Shown: piece after piece, positions 7,026 to 19,519 of the stretch | Numbering within the stretch: the first letter of the stretch is position 1 | Layout of the letters: each line of letters begins with the position of its first letter | Assembly: GCF_044324785.1 (NCBI RefSeq) | Contig: NZ_CP172127.1 | Source: Escherichia coli | GTDB taxonomy: Bacteria > Pseudomonadota > Gammaproteobacteria > Enterobacterales > Enterobacteriaceae | Length of the DNA: 64,000 bases | Direction: 5' to 3' (one strand) | Translations under genes and position numbers: made by a program | The notes under the pieces: generated by a model | What the model was told of the DNA's origin: nothing | Databases searched by the model: none | Seen by the model: the letters and a program-made list of their open reading frames with translations, nothing else

Positions 7026-8090
7026 TTAGCGGTGATATTGTTCAGACAAGCGATGCACTGCCTCCACAAACACGCCAGCATGTTCTGGCGGCACATCCTG
7101 ATGAATGCCGTGACCAAGGTTAAAGACATGACCTTCGCCGTGACCGAAACCTGCAAGTATAGTCGCTACTTCTTCTTCAATGCGGGCTGGCGGCGCGTAC
7201 AGCATCGACGGATCCATATTGCCCTGCAACGCGACTTTATTGCCCACGCGGCGGCGCGCATCGGCGATGTCCGTTGTCCAGTCGAGGCCCAGCGCATCGC
7301 AACCGGTTTCTGCCATTGCTTCCAGCCACTGTCCGCCGCCTTTGGTAAACAGCGTGACCGGTACGCGGCGACCGTCGTTTTCACGCAGTAAACCATCAAC
7401 AATTCTATGCATGTAATAGAGCGAGAACTGTTGATAATCGCGCCCGGTAAGCACGCCGCCCCAGGTGTCGAAAATCATCACTGCCTGAGCACCGGCTTTA
7501 ATCTGCGCATTCAGATACAAAGTGACGCTTTTCGCCAGTTTATCGAGTAGCGCGTGCAGCGCCTGCGGATCGGCATACATCATTTTTTTGATCACGGTGA
7601 AGGCTTTGCTGCTGCCGCCTTCCACCATATAGGTCGCCAGCGTCCACGGGCTGCCGGAAAAACCAATCAGCGGCACTTCGCCTTTCAGTTTGCGACGAAT
7701 GGTACGCACCGCGTTCATCACGTAACCCAGCTCATCTTCCGGGTCCGGAATTGGCAGTTTATCGACGTCGGCTTTGCAGGTGACTGGCGAGGTAAAACGC
7801 GGACCTTCTCCGGCTTCAAAATAGAGCCCTAACCCCATCGCGTCCGGCACGGTGAGGATATCGGAAAAGAGGATCGCCGCATCCAGCGGGTAGCGACGCA
7901 GCGGTTGCAAAGTCACTTCGCACGCCAGCTCGGCGTTTTTGCACAGCGACATAAAATCGCCCGCCTGGGCGCGCGTGGCTTTATATTCCGGTAGATAGCG
8001 ACCCGCCTGGCGCATCATCCATACTGGAGTGACATCAACGGGCTGGCGCAGCAGCGCCCGCAGATAACGATCGTTTTTAAGTTCGGTCAT
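7026..8090 (-). CDS. hemE: uroporphyrinogen decarboxylase
   Basis: 354 aa; [37 protein letters not shown]-terminus typical of HemE. Confidence 0.95.
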
Positions 8091-8129
8091 TTTGGCTGTT
8101 CCTTAGTGCGTCAGGCGGTCAGTGTATCA

Positions 8130-8903
8130 TCACTCATACTCTGCCCGACACATCGCCACCGTATCTTCTATCAGACGGCGCGCTACGGTGCCGGGCGGCG
8201 GGAGTAACGGCAAATCGTCATAGCGATACCAGTTCGCCTCGAGCAATTCTTTCGGGTCGATAACGATCTCGCCGCTGTCGTATTCTGCCATAAACGCGGT
8301 CATTAAAGACTGAGGAAACGGCCACGGCTGGGAAGTCACGTAACGCAAGTTTTTAACTTTAATTCCGCTCTCTTCCATCACTTCCCGCGCGACAGCCTGC
8401 TCGAGGGTTTCGCCCACTTCGACGAATCCGGCAAGTACCGTATGGACACCGTTACGATGGCGGGTATGCTGGGCGAGGAGGATCGAATCATCGCGACGGA
8501 TGGCAACAATAATGCAGGGGGCGATTTGCGGATAGTAACGCTCACGGCAATGGCTGCACAGCATCGCCCATTCGGTTTTGCTTGGATACATTTCATGCCC
8601 GCAGTAACCACAGTATTTATGCGATCGGTAAAACTCCGCCAGTTGCACGCCACGTCCGGCCAGTTGAAACAGCCCAACATCGAGATCAATGACCTGACGT
8701 ACCGACCCCATATCGTGACGACGCTGCTGTTGTATTAACCAAACAGGTTCCCCCTGCCATTCGCCGATTTGTATTGCGCGCTGACCCACAAGATCGAAAT
8801 TTGCCGCTTCGCCATATGGCAATTCTCCCTTCGGCAACCATAATTTTTGTTCATGGCTGACGACCCACCAGCCGTGATCTAATTTTTCAATTATACGATC
8901 CAT
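8130..8903 (-). CDS. nudC: NADH pyrophosphatase (Nudix hydrolase)
   Basis: 257 aa; zinc-ribbon CGYCG...CSHC and Nudix box ([23 protein letters not shown]). Confidence 0.92.
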
Positions 8904-8997
8904 AGCTCTTGCACTACCTTTGCATCACTGGCATGTTTAACATGGTTTTTACATTTCTCACTGAGCAGTTTTTGAATACAAACTTGCGGAGTCAATC

Positions 8998-9474
8998 ATG
9001 CTTAACCAGCTCGATAACCTGACGGAGCGCGTCAGAGGAAGTAACAAACTGGTTGATCGCTGGCTACATGTACGTAAGCATCTGCTCGTGGCTTACTACA
9101 ATCTGGTTGGCATTAAGCCTGGCAAAGAATCGTACATGAGGCTAAACGAAAAAGCCCTTGATGATTTTTGTCAGAGCCTGGTCGATTACTTGTCTGCCGG
9201 GCATTTCAGTATTTATGAGCGCATTCTTCATAAGCTGGAAGGCAACGGGCAACTCGCGCGCGCCGCGAAGATTTGGCCGCAACTCGAAGCCAATACCCAA
9301 CAGATTATGGATTACTACGATTCCAGCCTGGAAACCGCCATCGATCACGATAATTACCTTGAGTTTCAACAGGTTTTATCTGACATCGGCGAGGCGCTGG
9401 AAGCACGCTTTGTGCTGGAAGATAAGCTGATTCTGCTGGTGCTTGACGCCGCCCGCGTCAAACATCCTGCTTGA
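8998..9474 (+). CDS. rsd: regulator of sigma D (anti-sigma70)
   Basis: 158 aa MLNQLDNLTERV...; divergent from nudC, upstream of thiC. Confidence 0.92.
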   Translation: MLNQLDNLTERVRGSNKLVDRWLHVRKHLLVAYYNLVGIKPGKESYMRLNEKALDDFCQSLVDYLSAGHFSIYERILHKLEGNGQLARAAKIWPQLEANTQQIMDYYDSSLETAIDHDNYLEFQQVLSDIGEALEARFVLEDKLILLVLDAARVKHPA

Positions 9475-9509
9475 GTTCTGCGCTGTTAACGCGTAATTTA
9501 CATTCAACG

Positions 9510-9640
9510 CCCCGTTTGTGGGGGCTAATTTCTTGTCGGAGTGCCTTAACTGGCTGAGACCGTTTATTCGGGATCCGCGGAACCTGATCAGGCTAATACC
9601 TGCGAAGGGAACAAGAGTTAATCTGCTATCGCATCGCCCC
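9510..9640 (+). ncRNA. TPP riboswitch (THI element) in thiC leader
   Basis: Conserved CTGAGA...ACCTGATCaGGcTAATACCtGCGAAGGGAACA core directly upstream of thiC. Confidence 0.85.
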
Positions 9641-9704
9641 TGCGGCGATCGTCTCTTGCTTCATCCGTCGTCTGACAAGCCACGTCCTTAACTTTTTGGA
9701 ATGA

Positions 9705-12230
<2,526 letters not shown>

Positions 12231-12238
<8 letters not shown>

Positions 12239-12968
12239 CCGTGATTTTATGCGTTATAGCCGCCAAATCCTGCTCGACGATATCGCTCTTGACGGGCAGC
12301 AAAAACTGCTCGACAGCCAGGTGCTGATTATTGGTCTTGGCGGGCTGGGTACACCTGCTGCGCTGTACCTGGCGGGTGCTGGCGTCGGGACGCTGGTACT
12401 GGCAGATAACGACGATGTGCATTTAAGCAATCTGCAACGACAAATCCTCTTTACCACTGAAGATATCGATCGCCCGAAATCGCAGGTCAGCCAACAGCGA
12501 CTGACACAGTTGAATCCCGATATTCAACTGACAGCACTACAACAACGGTTAACGGGTGAGGCGCAAGCCGATGTGGTGCTCGACTGTACCGACAATATGG
12601 CGACTCGTCAGGAGATTAATACCGCCTGCGTGGCACTCAACACGCCGCTTATCACCGCCAGCGCGGTCGGATTTGGCGGTCAGTTGATGGTACTGACGCC
12701 GCCCTGGGAGCAGGGGTGTTACCGCTGCCTGTGGCCAGATAACCAGGAGCCTGAACGCAACTGCCGCACGGCGGGCGTGGTTGGCCCGGTGGTCGGGGTT
12801 ATGGGCACTTTGCAGGCACTGGAAGCCATTAAGTTATTAAGCGGTATAGAGACGCCTGCGGGAGAACTCCGACTGTTCGACGGTAAGTCGAGCCAGTGGC
12901 GCAGCCTGGCTTTGCGCCGCGCCAGTGGTTGCCCGGTATGCGGAGGAAGCAATGCAGATCCTGTTTAA
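12231..12968 (+). CDS. thiF: ThiS adenylyltransferase
   Basis: Start at [15 protein letters not shown] inside ORF 12138..12968; GLGGLG nucleotide-binding motif; C-terminal CxxC. Confidence 0.9.
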
Positions 12969-13152
12969 CGATCAACCGATGCAGTGCGCCGCCGGGCAAA
13001 CGGTTCACGAACTACTGGAGCAACTCGACCAACGACAAGCGGGCGCGGCTCTGGCGATTAATCAGCAAATCGTCCCGCGTGAGCAGTGGGCGCAACATAT
13101 CGTGCAGGATGGCGACCAGATCCTGCTTTTTCAGGTTATTGCAGGGGGTTGA
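12952..13152 (+). CDS. thiS: sulfur-carrier protein ThiS
   Basis: 66 aa MQILFNDQ... ending in GG; start at internal Met of ORF 12925..13152. Confidence 0.9.
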
Positions 13153-13153
13153 G

Positions 13154-13924
13154 ATGTTACGTATTGCGGACAAAACGTTTGATTCACATCTGTTTACCGG
13201 CACCGGGAAATTCGCCTCTTCACAACTGATGGTGGAGGCGATCCGCGCTTCCGGCAGCCAGCTGGTGACACTGGCGATGAAACGCGTCAACTTGCGCCAG
13301 CACAACGACGCAATCCTCGAACCGCTTATCGCGGCGGGTGTGACCCTGCTGCCGAATACTTCCGGGGCGAAAACAGCGGAAGAAGCCATTTTCGCCGCCC
13401 ATCTGGCACGTGAAGCATTAGGCACAAACTGGCTAAAATTAGAGATTCACCCTGACGCCCGCTGGCTGTTGCCCGATCCCATCGAAACCCTGAAAGCCGC
13501 CGAAACGCTGGTACAACAGGGATTTGTCGTGCTGCCTTACTGCGGGGCCGATCCGGTATTGTGTAAACGTCTGGAAGAAGTCGGCTGTGCAGCGGTGATG
13601 CCGCTCGGCGCGCCGATTGGCTCGAATCAGGGACTGGAAACCCGCGCCATGCTGGAGATTATTATCCAGCAGGCCACCGTTCCGGTGGTTGTCGATGCTG
13701 GCATCGGCGTTCCCAGCCATGCCGCGCAGGCGCTGGAAATGGGGGCCGACGCGGTGTTAGTGAATACGGCGATTGCCGTCGCGGACGATCCCGTCAACAT
13801 GGCGAAGGCATTTCGTCTGGCGGTAGAAGCAGGCCTGCTGGCACGTCAGTCCGGACCGGGCAGCCGCAGTCATTTTGCTCATGCCACCAGCCCGCTGACT
13901 GGATTTCTGGAGGCATCGGCATGA
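13154..13924 (+). CDS. thiG: thiazole synthase
   Basis: 256 aa from [20 protein letters not shown] (internal Met of ORF 12896..13924). Confidence 0.92.
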
Positions 13925-15054
13925 AAACCTTCAGCGATCGCTGGCGACAACTGGACTGGGACGACATCCGCCTGCGTATCAACGGCAAAACGGCTGCTGA
14001 CGTAGAGCGGGCGCTAAATGCCTCGCAACTCACCCGCGACGATATGATGGCGCTGTTATCGCCAGCCGCCAGTGGCTATCTGGAACCACTGGCCCAACGG
14101 GCGCAGCGTCTGACCCGTCAGCGATTTGGCAACGTCGTCAGCTTCTACGTCCCGCTTTATCTTTCCAATCTTTGCGCTAACGACTGCACGTACTGCGGAT
14201 TTTCCATGAGCAATCGCATCAAGCGCAAAACGCTGGATGAAGCGGATATTGCCAGGGAAAGCGCCGCTATACGGGAGATGGGCTTTGAACATCTGCTATT
14301 AGTCACTGGTGAACATCAGGCGAAAGTGGGGATGGATTACTTTCGTCGTCATCTCCCTGCCCTGCGTGAACAGTTCTCTTCACTACAGCTGGAAGTGCAA
14401 CCGCTGGCGGAGGCGGAATACGCCGAGTTAAAGCAACTTGGTCTGGATGGCGTGATGGTTTATCAGGAGACATATCACGAGGCGACTTATGCCCGCCATC
14501 ATCTGAAAGGCAAAAAACAGGACTTCTTCTGGCGGCTGGAAACGCCGGATCGGCTGGGGCGTGCGGGGATTGATAAGATAGGCCTCGGCGCGCTAATTGG
14601 CCTTTCCGACAGCTGGCGCGTTGACTGCTATATGGTTGCCGAACATTTGCTATGGCTGCAACAGCATTACTGGCAAAGCCGCTACTCTGTCTCCTTCCCT
14701 CGTCTGCGTCCGTGTACTGGCGGCATTGAGCCGGCGTCGATTATGGATGAACGCCAGTTAGTGCAAACCATCTGCGCCTTCCGGCTGCTTGCACCGGAGA
14801 TTGAACTGTCACTCTCCACGCGGGAATCACCGTGGTTTCGCGATCGCGTTATTCCGCTGGCAATTAATAACGTCAGCGCTTTTTCGAAAACGCAGCCAGG
14901 GGGTTATGCCGACAATCACCCCGAGCTGGAACAGTTCTCACCACACGACGATCGCAGACCTGAAGCGGTTGCCGCCGCGTTAACCGCTCAGGGTTTGCAG
15001 CCGGTATGGAAAGACTGGGACAGCTATCTGGGACGCGCCTCGCAAAGGCCATGA
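13921..15054 (+). CDS. thiH: 2-iminoacetate synthase (radical SAM)
   Basis: 377 aa; CANDCTYC radical-SAM motif. Confidence 0.93.
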
Positions 15055-15244
15055 GACAGAATGTAAGAACGTAAATTTATTCCGAGCCGCTACGGAAGAT
15101 GAAAAACGCAAGGTTGTTGAAAGCGTTGTGTTTTTTTATGGTAGTGCCGTCAGCAGGAATGTTGTCCAGGGCGAAAAGCTTCTTCCTCGTTTCGCCCTGC
15201 CTTTCTTAATATTTCCCGTGAAGACTTTGCCCTCTGAATAACTC

Positions 15245-15278
15245 CCATAAAAAAACCCGCCGAAGCGGGTTTTTACGT
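15245..15278 (-). terminator. rpoC intrinsic terminator
   Basis: AAAAACCCGCTTCGGCGGGTTTTT hairpin with flanking T/A runs immediately downstream of rpoC stop. Confidence 0.8.
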
Positions 15279-15295
15279 TATTTGCGGATTAACGA

Positions 15296-18200
15296 TTACT
15301 CGTTATCAGAACCGCCCAGACCTGCGTTCAGCAGTTCTGCCAGGCTGGCAGATGCGTCTTCTGCAGTCACCTGCGGTGCAGCCGGAGCTTCACCCGCAGC
15401 ACGGCGACGCATACGATCCTGGTGATACGCGTAACCGGTACCAGCCGGGATCAGACGACCCACGATAACGTTCTCTTTCAGGCCGCGCAGTTCGTCGCGT
15501 TTGCCCGCAACGGCTGCTTCGGTCAGCACGCGAGTGGTCTCCTGGAACGATGCCGCGGAGATGAAGGACTCGGTTGCCAGAGACGCTTTGGTGATACCCA
15601 GCAGATCGCGGGAGTAAGTTGCCCCCACTTTGCCGTTCGCTTCCAGTTCGCGGTTTGCGATCTTGACGCGAGAGTATTCAACCTGTTCGCCTTCCAGGAA
15701 GTCGGAGCTGCCCGCGTTAACGATGGTAGCTTTACGCAGCATCTGACGAACGATAACTTCGATGTGTTTATCGTTAATCTTAACGCCCTGCAGACGGTAT
15801 ACGTCCTGTACTTCGTTAACGATGTAACGAGTAACAGCATGAACACCACGCAGACGCAGAATGTCGTGCGGCGCTTCCGGACCGTCGGAAATTACGTCAC
15901 CACGTTCTACACGTTCACCTTCGAACACGTTGAGCTGACGCCATTTCGGAATCATCTCTTCGTACGGATCGCTACCGTCTACCGGGGTGATAACCAGACG
16001 ACGTTTACCTTTGGTTTCTTTACCGAAGGAAACGATACCGCTGATTTCAGCCAGGATTGCCGGCTCTTTCGGACGACGTGCTTCGAACAGGTCCGCAACG
16101 CGCGGCAGACCACCGGTGATGTCCTTGGTACCGCCGGATTCCTGCGGAATACGCGCCAGGGTGTCACCAGAGCTGATCTGTACGCCATCTTCCAGCTGAA
16201 CAATCGCTTTACCTGGCAGGAAGTACTGCGCAGGCATATCGGTACCCGGGATCAGAACGTCGTTACCCTGAGCATCAACGATTTTCAGTGCCGGACGCAG
16301 ATCTTTACCACCTGCGGTACGTTCTGCGGAATCCAGAACCACCAGCGAAGACAGACCGGTCAGTTCGTCGGTCTGACGCGTAATGGTCTGGCCGTCGATC
16401 ATGTCAGTAAAGCGTACAAAACCGCTTACTTCGGTGATAACCGGCATGGTGTGCGGGTCCCAGTTTGCAACGGTTTCGCCGCCAGCAACCTGTTCGCCAT
16501 CGCCTTTCGCCAGTACCGCACCGTAAGGTACTTTGTAGCTTTCTTTGGTACGACCGAATTCGTCGATCAGTTTCAGTTCGGTGTTACGGGAAGTGATAAC
16601 CAGTTTACCGCTGGAGTTCACAACCGACTTCACGTTGCTGAGCTTGATGCTACCTTTGTTTTTCACCTGGATGCTGGATTCAGCAGCCGCACGAGATGCC
16701 GCACCACCGATGTGGAACGTACGCATGGTCAGCTGTGTACCCGGTTCACCGATGGACTGTGCCGCGATAACACCGATTGCTTCACCTTTGTTGATGATGT
16801 GGCCACGCGCCAGGTCACGACCGTAGCAGTGCGCACATACACCAAAGTCGGTGTCACAAGATACAACAGAACGTACTTTAACCGCGTCGACAGAGTTCTC
16901 TTCCAGCAGGTCACACCACTGTTCGTGCAGCAGCGTGTTGCGCGGAACGAGGATATCAGCAGTACCCGGCTTCAGAACGTCTTCAGCAGTTACACGACCC
17001 AGTACGCGATCGCGCAGCGGCTCTTTAACGTCACCACCTTCGATAACCGGAGTCATCATGATACCTTCATGAGTACCACAATCGTCTTCGGTAACCACCA
17101 GGTCCTGCGCCACGTCAACCAGACGACGAGTCAGGTAACCGGAGTTCGCAGTTTTCAGTGCGGTATCCGCCAGACCTTTACGCGCACCGTGGGTGGAGAT
17201 GAAGTACTGGAGTACGTTCAGACCTTCACGGAAGTTCGCGGTGATTGGCGTTTCGATGATGGAGCCATCCGGCTTCGCCATCAGACCACGCATACCAGCA
17301 AGCTGACGAATCTGTGCCGCAGAACCACGCGCACCGGAGTCGGCCATCATGTAGATGCTGTTGAAGGAAACCTGCTTCTCTTCCTGACCGTCACGGTTAA
17401 TCACGGTTTCAGTTTGCAGGTTATCCATCATCGCTTTGGATACACGATCGTTCGCCGCAGCCCAGATATCGATAACTTTGTTGTAGCGTTCGCCCGCAGT
17501 TACCAGACCAGACTGGAACTGCTCCTGAATTTCAGCAACTTCTGCTTCTGCCTCGGAGATGATTTCGTGTTTCTTCTCCGGGATGACCATGTCATCGATA
17601 CCAACAGATGCACCAGAACGCGCTGCATAGGCAAAGCCGGTATACATGATCTGGTCCGCAAAAATAACAGTCGGTTTCAGACCGAGAATGCGGTAGCAGG
17701 TGTTCAGCATTTTGGAGATTGCTTTTTTACCCAGCGCCTGGTTGACGATGGAGTAAGGCAGACCTTTCGGTACAATCATCCACAGAATGGCACGGCCAAC
17801 AGTCGTGTCTTTCAGGCTGGTTTTCGCTACTAATTCACCGTTAGCATCTTTTTCATACTCGGTGATACGCACTTTAACGCGCGCATGCAGAGAAGCCAGA
17901 CCAGAGCGATACAGACGTTCTGCTTCTTTCGGGCCAGTCAGCACCATGCCTTCGCCTTTGGCGTTAACACAGTCACGGGTCATGTAGTACAGACCCAGTA
18001 CAACGTCCTGAGACGGAACGATGATTGGTTCGCCGTTCGCCGGGGACAGGATGTTGTTGGTAGACATCATCAGCGCACGCGCTTCCAGCTGGGCTTCCAG
18101 CGTCAGCGGTACGTGAACTGCCATCTGGTCACCATCGAAGTCGGCGTTATATGCCGCACAAACCAGCGGGTGCAGCTGGATAGCTTTACCTTCGATCAGT

Positions 18201-19519
18201 ACCGGTTCAAATGCCTGGATACCCAGACGGTGCAGAGTCGGTGCACGGTTCAGCAGTACCGGGTGTTCGCGGATAACTTCGTCCAGGATATCCCAAACGA
18301 CAGCTTCTTCGCGCTCAACCATTTTCTTCGCAGCTTTAATGGTGGTAGCAAGACCACGCAGTTCCAGCTTGCCGTAGATGAACGGTTTGAACAGCTCCAG
18401 CGCCATTTTCTTCGGCAGACCGCACTGATGCAGACGCAGGTATGGACCTACGGTGATTACAGAACGACCGGAGTAGTCAACACGCTTACCGAGCAGGTTC
18501 TGACGGAAACGACCCTGTTTACCTTTGATCATGTCGGCCAAAGATTTCAGAGGACGCTTGTTAGAACCGGTGATCGCACGACCGCGACGACCGTTATCCA
18601 GCAGGGCGTCTACCGCTTCCTGCAGCATACGTTTTTCGTTACGTACGATGATGTCCGGCGCAGCCAGATCCAGCAGACGTTTCAGACGGTTGTTACGGTT
18701 AATGACGCGACGATACAGATCGTTCAGGTCAGAAGTCGCGAAACGACCACCATCCAGCGGAACCAGCGGACGCAGATCTGGCGGCAGTACCGGCAGAACG
18801 GTCAGGATCATCCACTCTGGTTTGTTACCAGACTGAACGAACGCTTCCAGCAGTTTGATACGCTTGGTCAGCTTTTTACGCTTGGTTTCGGAGTTGGTTT
18901 CGTTCAGCTCTTCACGCAGCTGTTCGCACTCTTGCTCCAGATCCATGCTCTTCAGCAGGGCCTGAATTGCTTCCGCACCCATTTTCGCGTCGAATTCGTC
19001 ACCGAACTCTTCCAGCGCGTCCAGATACTGCTCTTCAGTCAGGATCTGCTGGCGTTCCAGGTTGGTCATACCGCCTTCAATAACCACATAGGATTCGAAG
19101 TACAGTACGCGTTCGATATCGCGCAGCGGCATATCGAGCAGCAGGCCGATACGGGACGGCAGCGATTTCAGGAACCAGATGTGCGCAGTCGGGGAAGCCA
19201 GTTCGATGTGGCCCATACGCTCACGGCGTACTTTAGTCTGGGTCACTTCAACGCCGCACTTCTCACAGATGACGCCACGGTGTTTCAGGCGCTTGTACTT
19301 ACCGCACAGGCACTCGTAATCTTTTACCGGCCCAAAGATACGGGCGCAGAAAAGGCCGTCACGTTCTGGTTTGAACGTACGGTAGTTGATGGTTTCCGGC
19401 TTTTTAACTTCACCGAAAGACCATGAACGGATCATGTCTGGCGAAGCCAGAGCAATTTTGATCGCATCAAACTCTTCGGTTTTAGTCTGCGCTTTCAGAA
19501 ACTTTAATAAATCTTTCAC
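15296..19519 (-). CDS. rpoC: RNA polymerase subunit beta'
   Basis: 1407 aa [80 protein letters not shown]... Confidence 0.99.

What the first reader, a model, noticed from the sequence alone, without database searches (positions are those of the whole stretch)
15055..15295. Very short thiH-rpoC gap: expected yjaZ/htrC gene appears absent
By recall of the K-12 gene order (rpoC, yjaZ/htrC, thiH) a ~180-codon gene should lie between rpoC and thiH. Here only 241 bp separate the two stop codons, and no ORF of 60 aa or more is present on either strand; only a 32-codon minus-strand ORF (about 15150..15248) follows the rpoC terminator. The gene is either deleted in this lineage or my recollection of its position is imperfect.
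Basis: partly seen in the sequence, partly recalled or inferred. Interest (0 to 1): 0.3.

Follow-up and report, generated by a model that had tools for sequence, protein, structure and literature searches.

The report
Ancestral empty thiH–rpoC spacer, no yjaZ
The gene yjaZ, and the small RNA gene sroH beside it, are truly missing between thiH and rpoC here, but this is the common original state of the site: about 30% of E. coli and two sister species share it, and K-12 carries a later 945-bp insertion.

Summary
thiH stops at 15054 and rpoC (minus strand) stops at 15296, so 241 bp lie between them. No ORF in the gap reaches 60 aa. The 64-kb window has no YjaZ homolog and no sroH.

MG1655 has a 1161-bp gap that holds sroH and yjaZ.

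"Deleted in this lineage" is not supported.
- The 241-bp form is in 1626 of 5426 complete E. coli genomes, including CFT073, Nissle 1917 and W.
- It is also in loci labelled E. fergusonii and E. albertii.
- All of these keep a 24-bp spacer (15220-15243) that the K-12 form lacks. In K-12, 945 AT-richer bases replace it.
- All five occupied alleles examined have the same left junction, and the four whose right junction was recovered share it, which points to one old insertion.

The inserted piece, sroH plus yjaZ, also occurs on plasmids of other enterobacteria at 66-79% DNA identity.

The site lies between two convergent terminators and is variable across Enterobacteriaceae. Absence of sroH from phylogroups B2+D, S. 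flexneri and other strains was published in 2012.

Verdict: a real but ordinary and already known presence/absence polymorphism. The window has the ancestral empty allele.

The parts
13921..15054 (+). thiH, the last gene of thiCEFSGH; stop codon TGA at 15052-15054
   Evidence: The ORF is. It is 98.4-98.7% identical in protein to the annotated ThiH of MG1655, AST215 and STLEFF_47. The exact sequence is labelled E. coli ThiH.
15055..15219 (+). thi operon 3' UTR, the left flank shared by all alleles. It has a hairpin with a U7 tract at 15101-15138 and a strong terminator hairpin at 15167-15199 (CAGGGCGAAA / 13-nt loop / TTTCGCCCTG) followed by a U-rich tail at 15200-15214.
   Evidence: ViennaRNA folds give -17.0 and -15.0 kcal/mol. 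The region is nearly invariant in Escherichia. In most other genera that give a significant match it is conserved at a fixed offset, with homology ending about 146-151 nt after the stop codon. The terminator role is inferred from hairpin plus U tail. The consensus scan did not list this site, probably because the 13-nt loop exceeds the scan's loop limit of 3-8.
15220..15243 (.). 24-bp ancestral spacer GAAGACTTTGCCCTCTGAATAACT. This is the point where K-12-type genomes carry the 945-bp sroH-yjaZ segment instead.
   Evidence: Alignments are, and breakpoints. The spacer is present in E. coli empty alleles (CFT073, W and others) and in the E. fergusonii and E. albertii loci. It has no significant match at either end of the MG1655 insert.
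15244..15295 (-). rpoC 3' UTR, the right flank shared by all alleles, with the rpoBC terminator hairpin AAAAACCCGCCGAAGCGGGTTTTT at 15251-15274
   Evidence: Terminator scan and fold. The hairpin (15251-15274) is identical in all aligned E. coli, E. fergusonii and E. albertii loci; the wider flank differs only by two substitutions in the E. albertii locus. The weak Rfam rsmX and Trp_leader matches here fall below their gathering scores and merely reflect the terminator.
15296..19519 (-). rpoC; stop codon at 15296-15298
   Evidence: The ORF is. The C-terminal 199 aa are 100% identical to MG1655 RpoC.
15150..15248 (-).
   Evidence: It runs antisense through the thi terminator hairpin and across the spacer. 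In K-12-type genomes the insertion point at 15219/15220 would cut it in two. It has no family match and is not called as a gene in any fetched record.

Best explanation
The window carries the original, unoccupied form of the thiH-rpoC intergenic region. Two convergent transcription units end here. The thi operon ends at a hairpin terminator at 15167-15199. rpoBC ends at the hairpin at 15251-15274. About 50 bp lie between the two hairpins. In an ancestor of part of E. coli, which includes K-12 and O157:H7, a 945-bp AT-richer segment replaced the 24 bp at 15220-15243. That segment carries two convergent genes: the sRNA gene sroH and the 179-codon gene yjaZ (formerly htrC). The window's lineage most likely never received this segment, so nothing has been deleted. 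Steps shown here: the absence of both genes, the breakpoints, the shared junctions of the occupied alleles, the state in the outgroup loci, and the allele frequencies. Steps inferred: the direction of the event (by parsimony and from retention of the 24-bp spacer), horizontal origin of the segment, and the terminator function of the hairpins.
For: (1) Both genes are absent. The gap is 241 bp, no YjaZ is found by tblastn in 64 kb, and no sroH is found by Rfam. MG1655 has sroH at 201 bits and yjaZ in a 1161-bp gap.
(2) Frequency. 3741 of 5426 complete E. coli genomes match the sroH-yjaZ segment. 1626 of 5426 have the full empty junction, including CFT073 and Nissle 1917 and E. coli W (their phylogroups, B2 and B1, are from my own knowledge).
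(3) Outgroups. Loci labelled E. fergusonii (L089) and E. albertii (L093) are 94.2-94.6% identical to the window in the thi operon. Both have the same 241-bp gap, 96-97% identical, including the 24-bp spacer.
(4) The spacer is missing from the K-12 allele and has no significant match at either end of the insert (shuffle fractions 0.26 and 0.43). A deletion of the insert therefore could not produce the empty allele.
(5) The window's left junction reads TTAATATTTCCC, as in E. fergusonii, E. albertii and CFT073. The insert sits in the TTAAAAATTCC haplotype, which is also found empty in W, FDAARGOS_1253 and STLEFF_47.
(6) All five occupied alleles examined (MG1655, Sakai, MLI109, eco-241, E105) share the same left junction. 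The four whose right junction was recovered share it apart from a few substitutions; the exact-string look-up failed for eco-241, which still aligns end to end at 97.9%. They differ by up to about 2.5% inside the insert. This fits one old insertion.
(7) The insert is 41.5% G+C, against 55.8% for thiH and 53.9% for rpoC.
(8) The sroH-yjaZ pair recurs on plasmids or plasmid-like contigs of other enterobacteria. DNA homology to K-12 is limited to the two genes (L001 2128-2814).
(9) The interval is variable across Enterobacteriaceae, from 248 bp to more than 4 kb. In most genera that give a significant match, homology stops at the thi terminator.
Against: Skippington & Ragan 2012 (PMC3318445) scored the sroH pattern as losses (B2+D, ATCC 8739, S. 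flexneri, S. sonnei 046). That was parsimony on an E. coli-only tree without the outgroup junctions used here.
The species labels of L089 and L093 come from the source databases. I checked them only through their roughly 94% identity to the window.
E. whittamii and Escherichia sp. MOD1-EC7003 have different cargo at this site, so the site has changed more than once within the genus.
I could not place the window's lineage on a phylogeny. No complete E. coli genome is more than 98.9% identical over 25 kb.
I can exclude a copy of yjaZ only within these 64 kb, not elsewhere in the source genome.
The low G+C of the insert is weak evidence on its own, because the empty intergenic region is also 44% G+C.
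Confidence: 0.8

Rival explanations
1. The window's lineage descends from cassette-bearing ancestors and lost sroH-yjaZ by homologous recombination. Recombination in the conserved thiH and rpoC flanks would have imported an empty allele from another strain. This is a loss, but by allele replacement rather than deletion.
For: Empty alleles occur in E. coli W, a strain I know to be phylogroup B1, a group that otherwise mostly carries the cassette. The literature also lists ATCC 8739. So the two alleles do move between backgrounds or are lost repeatedly. The flanks are long and highly conserved, with rpoC above 99% identical, which is ideal for recombination.
Against: The window's junction haplotype (TTAATATTTCCC) is the one shared with the E. 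fergusonii, E. albertii and CFT073 loci. The best-matching E. coli genomes around the locus are all empty-allele strains (H1-H9). No mosaic signal was looked for, so this rival is disfavoured rather than excluded.
Confidence: 0.13
2. A new deletion in this lineage removed yjaZ.
For: Deletions do happen inside this region. O157:H7 Sakai has lost 71 bp and has a truncated yjaZ. Strain E105 has a frameshifted yjaZ. Strain BS-01 has a 17-bp deletion within the empty spacer.
Against: The window retains the 24-bp spacer that is absent from occupied alleles but present in the outgroup loci. No fragment of sroH, yjaZ or the insert ends remains. The same junction is found in 1626 genomes.
Confidence: 0.03
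3. The short gap is an assembly artefact, or the reader misremembered the K-12 map.
For: None found.
Against: Forty-four complete genomes have a junction 100% identical to the window's over the 81 bp queried. Independent assemblies that carry the same ThiH show the same gap.
Confidence: 0.01

Closest known systems
E. coli K-12 MG1655 rpoC-yjaZ-sroH-thiH locus (b3988-b3990)
   Same: The flanking genes, their convergent orientation, the thi terminator hairpin and the rpoC terminator are the same. The left 161 bp and right 52 bp of the intergenic region are 98-100% identical.
   Different: K-12 has 945 bp (L001 2016-2960) holding sroH and yjaZ where the window has 24 bp.
Empty thiH-rpoC alleles of E. 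coli CFT073 and Nissle 1917, E. coli W, and loci labelled E. fergusonii and E. albertii
   Same: The gap is the same 240-241 bp and the 24-bp spacer is present. Over the 81 bp around the junction, E. coli alleles are 92.6-100% identical. Over the whole gap, the other two species are 96-97% identical.
   Different: Only point differences and 1-2-bp indels in the AT-rich stretch just after the thi terminator. The window's version is found unchanged in 44 complete genomes.
Published phyletic pattern of sroH (Skippington & Ragan 2012, Genome Biol Evol, PMC3318445)
   Same: The paper reports sroH absent from phylogroups B2+D, E. coli ATCC 8739, S. flexneri and S. sonnei 046. This is the same polymorphism seen here.
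   Different: The paper scores the pattern as secondary losses and does not discuss yjaZ or the junction sequence in the passage read. The outgroup junctions examined here favour a single gain.
Variable cargo sites between convergent terminators in enterobacterial chromosomes (general concept, from my own knowledge)
   Same: The conserved flanks stop exactly at the two terminators. Different lineages hold nothing, sroH-yjaZ, or a cluster with a DUF4867 protein, an 895-aa protein and a membrane protein.
   Different: No integrase, tRNA gene, target-site duplication or inverted repeats were found at the junctions, so this is not a classical integrative island.

Membership tests
Empty (ancestral) thiH-rpoC allele of Escherichia | thiH and rpoC are convergent and about 241 bp apart with no gene between them | tested here: met
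   the gap is 15055-15295 and the longest ORF touching it is 47 aa.
Empty (ancestral) thiH-rpoC allele of Escherichia | The 24-bp spacer GAAGA(C/A)TTTGCCCTCTGAATAAC(T/A) lies between the two terminators | tested here: met
   Window 15220-15243. It aligns with CFT073, W, G3X16-2, FDAARGOS_1253, STLEFF_47, E. fergusonii and E. albertii.
Empty (ancestral) thiH-rpoC allele of Escherichia | No sroH and no yjaZ | tested here: met
   Rfam finds no sroH at E<=1. tblastn finds no YjaZ at E<=1e-3 in the whole window.
K-12-type occupied allele (sroH-yjaZ cassette) | sroH (Rfam RF00372) and the yjaZ ORF (NCBIfam NF007263) lie between thiH and rpoC, with junctions ...AAATTCCGT|AATGCAAAG and ...CTAAACTCC|CCCCAT | tested here: not met
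Lineage-specific deletion of yjaZ | The junction derives from an occupied allele, with residual insert sequence or loss of flanking ancestral bases, and the junction is restricted to one lineage | tested here: not met
   No insert remnants are present and the ancestral spacer is intact. The junction is shared with 1626 genomes and two other species.
Intrinsic (Rho-independent) terminators flanking the site | A G+C-rich hairpin followed by a U tract on the transcribed strand | tested here: met
   For rpoC: 15251-15274, a 10-bp stem followed by a T run on the minus strand. For thi: 15167-15199, a 10-bp stem followed by CCUUUCUU. Actual termination was not tested.
Classical genomic island or integrative element at the K-12 insertion | An integrase or transposase, a target-site duplication, or terminal repeats | tested here: not met
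   The 945 bp hold only sroH and yjaZ. There are no significant repeats at the ends. The short AAATTCC repeat is no better than chance.

The most novel reading that the evidence does not exclude
The segment missing here may be more than a stray gene. It may be a self-contained, plasmid-borne RNA-protein cassette. In all five loci examined with YjaZ at 57% identity or more, a conserved structured RNA (sroH) sits tail-to-tail with yjaZ and shares a palindromic terminator with it. The loci are the K-12 chromosome, an 88-kb replicon from E. fergusonii, a ColE1-type plasmid of Enterobacter cloacae, a conjugative Serratia plasmid, and one metagenomic contig. The YjaZ model also weakly resembles RelE/HigB/ParE toxins. 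The pair could therefore be an uncharacterised toxin-antitoxin-like or plasmid-maintenance module with an RNA partner. It would have been captured once between the thi and rpoBC terminators of E. coli, and the window would preserve the pre-insertion site.
Probability: 0.2. Interest if true: 0.45.

Novelty: already known. Interest (0 to 1): 0.12.

Why it matters
The finding matters little for this window. It shows that K-12 gene order is not a safe reference for every E. coli strain, and that yjaZ and sroH are accessory genes rather than core genes. The polarity result is a small correction to how the sroH pattern has been read: the empty site is ancestral, there was one old insertion, and the cassette has since decayed in some lineages. 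EcoCyc has retracted the heat-shock function once assigned to yjaZ (PMC11551758). The constant pairing of yjaZ with sroH on plasmids gives a concrete starting point for working out what the two genes do.

Tried and rejected
1. Target-site duplication or deletion between direct repeats. AAATTCC occurs at both ends of the MG1655 insert. Smith-Waterman comparison of a 27-bp core around the empty-site spacer (window 15217-15243) with the first and last 60 bp of the insert is at chance level (260 of 1000 and 434 of 1000 shuffles reach the score). The best match anywhere in the insert is a 14-nt stretch inside yjaZ (5 of 500 shuffles), which I treat as chance.
2. Rfam matches in the gap (rsmX at 31 bits, Trp_leader at 25 bits) are far below their gathering scores and only match the rpoC terminator hairpin.
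3. YjaZ has no hit in the local Pfam-A copy, PADLOC or PHROGs, no tblastn hit in 50,697 phage records, and no significant sequence match in the PDB (best E = 0.27). The precomputed family is PF27200.
4. Antisense pairing of sroH with the yjaZ 5' region. No direct repeat with a seed of 8 or more is present in MG1655. One imperfect 18-nt candidate exists in L084 only. It is not conserved, so I dropped it.
5. The AFDB Foldseek library was unavailable.
I obtained those loci through exact-protein look-ups instead.
7. Literature searches with 'sroH' alone mostly return 'self-rated oral health' papers. Few indexed papers mention yjaZ.

Full report
**Observation.** In the window, thiH (plus strand, 13921-15054) ends with TGA at 15052-15054. 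rpoC (minus strand, 15296-19519) ends with TAA at 15296-15298. The two stop codons are therefore 241 bp apart. tblastn with K-12 YjaZ finds no match anywhere in the 64-kb window. An Rfam scan of 8000-16500 at E<=1 finds the TPP riboswitch upstream of thiC and two sub-threshold terminator look-alikes, but no sroH.

**What K-12 has.** In an MG1655 record (L001) the thiH-rpoC gap is 1161 bp. It holds yjaZ (540 bp, on the same strand as rpoC) and, tail-to-tail with it, the sRNA gene sroH (Rfam RF00372, 201 bits, full length, on the same strand as thiH).

**Breakpoints.**
- The two forms are collinear from the thiH stop codon to ...AAATTCCGT (window 15219), and again from CCCAT (window 15244) through the rpoC terminator.
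- Between these points the window has 24 bp, GAAGACTTTGCCCTCTGAATAACT. MG1655 has 945 bp (L001 2016-2960) with 41.5% G+C, against 55.8% for thiH and 53.9% for rpoC.
- A 27-bp core around the spacer (15217-15243) has no significant similarity to either end of the 945 bp (shuffle test). I found no target-site duplication and no terminal repeats.
- The event is therefore a replacement of 24 bp by 945 bp, or the reverse.

**Frequency.** Of 5426 complete E. coli genomes, 5420 contain the thiH-rpoC junction region. 3741 match the sroH-yjaZ segment. 1626 have the complete empty junction at 92.6-100% identity over 81 bp, and 44 of these are identical to the window. Empty-allele strains include CFT073, Nissle 1917 and E. 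coli W (phylogroups B2, B2 and B1 by my own knowledge). Occupied strains include MG1655, O157:H7 Sakai, O104:H4 and ECOR29. Skippington & Ragan (2012, PMC3318445) already listed sroH as absent from B2+D, ATCC 8739, S. flexneri and S. sonnei 046.

**Direction of the event.**
- Loci that carry ThiH proteins labelled E. fergusonii (L089) and E. albertii (L093) are 94.2-94.6% identical to the window across the thi operon. E. coli strains are 97-98% identical in the thiG-thiH part that was fetched. These two loci are therefore outside E. coli proper.
- Both have a 241-bp gap that is 96-97% identical to the window's and includes the 24-bp spacer.
- The spacer is absent from occupied alleles, so deleting the insert could not regenerate it. 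The empty form is the older one.
- All five occupied alleles examined (MG1655, Sakai, MLI109, eco-241, E105) have the same left junction. The right junction was recovered for four of them and is the same apart from a few substitutions; the string look-up failed for eco-241, which nevertheless aligns over the whole intergenic region at 97.9%. The alleles differ by up to about 2.5% inside the insert. This indicates a single, old insertion.
- The insert sits in a TTAAAAATTCC junction haplotype that also exists empty in W, FDAARGOS_1253 and STLEFF_47. The window has TTAATATTTCCC, as do E. fergusonii, E. albertii and CFT073. This favours "never inserted" over "lost by allele replacement" for the window's lineage, but does not prove it.

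**Origin of the insert.**
- YjaZ has no hit in the local Pfam copy, PADLOC or PHROGs. It has only its own NCBIfam equivalog, NF007263, and precomputed hits name a recent family, PF27200.
- Its relatives are patchily distributed: Escherichia, Raoultella, Pantoea, Salmonella, Enterobacter, Serratia, Aeromonas and cyanobacteria. tblastn detects YjaZ-like sequences in 559 plasmid records, most of them below 60% identity.
- The closest relatives outside the E. coli chromosomal type (78% and 70% amino-acid identity) lie on an 88-kb replicon and a 90-kb contig, beside genes for RdgC, a D12 methyltransferase, HigBA or UmuDC.
- In these two loci, in the ColE1-type plasmid pS51A of Enterobacter cloacae and in the conjugative plasmid pE46_1 of Serratia marcescens, sroH is again detected (89-144 bits). 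Each time it is convergent with yjaZ and directly abuts it.
- DNA homology between the K-12 insert and these loci is confined to the two genes (L001 2128-2814; 78.6% to L084).
- No phage record matches.
- The K-12 segment is thus best read as a captured copy of a mobile two-gene cassette. Horizontal origin is an inference.

**The site.** The left flank (15055-15219) is the thi 3' UTR. It has a hairpin with a U7 tract at 15101-15138 and a 10-bp-stem hairpin at 15167-15199 followed by a U-rich tail. The right flank contains the rpoBC terminator at 15251-15274. Among 80 other Enterobacteriaceae loci, the distance from thiH to rpoC ranges from 341 bp to more than 4 kb. In most genera that give a significant match, homology to the window's thi 3' UTR stops about 146-151 nt after the stop codon, at the end of the terminator hairpin. 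E. whittamii and Escherichia sp. MOD1-EC7003 carry a DUF4867 gene, an 895-codon gene and a membrane-protein gene there. The interval between the two convergent terminators is therefore a recurrent place for cargo. The window shows it empty.

**Side observation on the cassette (not in the window).**
- sroH from five loci keeps long invariant blocks. It also has hairpins with compensatory changes, CUGAA/UUCAG to CUGG/CCAG and CCUGC/GCAGG to CCAAC/GUUGG (these pairs are my reading of the alignment, since RNAalifold's own consensus differs).
- An AlphaFold2 model of YjaZ is confident (pLDDT 87.4, pTM 0.84).
- This is a lead towards a toxin-antitoxin-like RNA-protein pair, not a demonstration.
- EcoCyc has retracted the original heat-shock function of htrC (PMC11551758).
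- The gene is decaying in some lineages. It is truncated by a 71-bp deletion in Sakai, frameshifted in E105, and interrupted or flanked by IS1 in strain 200088.

**Verdict.** It was most probably never present in this lineage, and the state is common and already recorded in the literature. Interest is low.

Noticed in passing
L001 2099-2800 (MG1655); L084 5001-5693; L088 5001-5732; L095 2392-3130; L096 3992-4688: sroH and yjaZ form a conserved convergent pair on plasmids and plasmid-like contigs of several enterobacteria, not only in the E. coli chromosome. sroH abuts the yjaZ stop codon and the two share a palindromic hairpin (AAACCCACCTTAAGGTGGGTTT). DNA homology to K-12 covers only the two genes.
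   Followed up: partly
[not shown]
   Followed up: partly
L004 5467-9124 (E. whittamii); L005 5449-9130 (Escherichia sp. MOD1-EC7003): At the same spot downstream of the thi terminator, these species carry different cargo: a DUF4867 protein (Pfam E = 2e-52), an 895-aa protein with no Pfam hit on the opposite strand, and a membrane-protein gene. rpoC lies more than 4 kb away.
   Followed up: partly
window 15055-15209: The thiH 3' UTR is more conserved than the thi coding region within Escherichia (97.5% against 93.5% versus E. whittamii). It is also conserved at a fixed offset in Klebsiella, Enterobacter, Salmonella and other genera. It contains two hairpins, at 15101-15138 and 15167-15199. Whether it does more than terminate transcription was not tested.
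   Followed up: partly
window 9527-9627: A TPP riboswitch (Rfam RF00059, 74.8 bits) lies upstream of thiC, as expected for the thiCEFSGH operon.
   Followed up: no
window 1-25000: No complete E. coli genome among 5426 is more than 98.9% identical to the window over 25 kb, although the window's exact ThiH and ThiC sequences are labelled E. coli and occur on more than 100 contigs. The best hits span about 162 bp more than the query, so there is another small indel somewhere in 1-25000 that I did not locate.
   Followed up: no
L105 (O157:H7 Sakai), L108 (strain E105), H31 (strain 200088), L104 (strain BS-01): Secondary changes at the locus. In Sakai a 71-bp deletion truncates yjaZ to 444 bp. In E105 yjaZ is frameshifted. 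In strain 200088 an IS1 lies in the cassette region. In BS-01 the empty spacer has a further 17-bp deletion, giving a 224-bp gap.
   Followed up: partly
L001 2060-2098: A good sigma-70-like promoter (TTGTAA, 17-nt spacer, TATGAT) sits just upstream of the sroH 5' end, inside the K-12 insert. This suggests sroH is transcribed on its own rather than as thi read-through. I read it by eye and did not test it.
   Followed up: no
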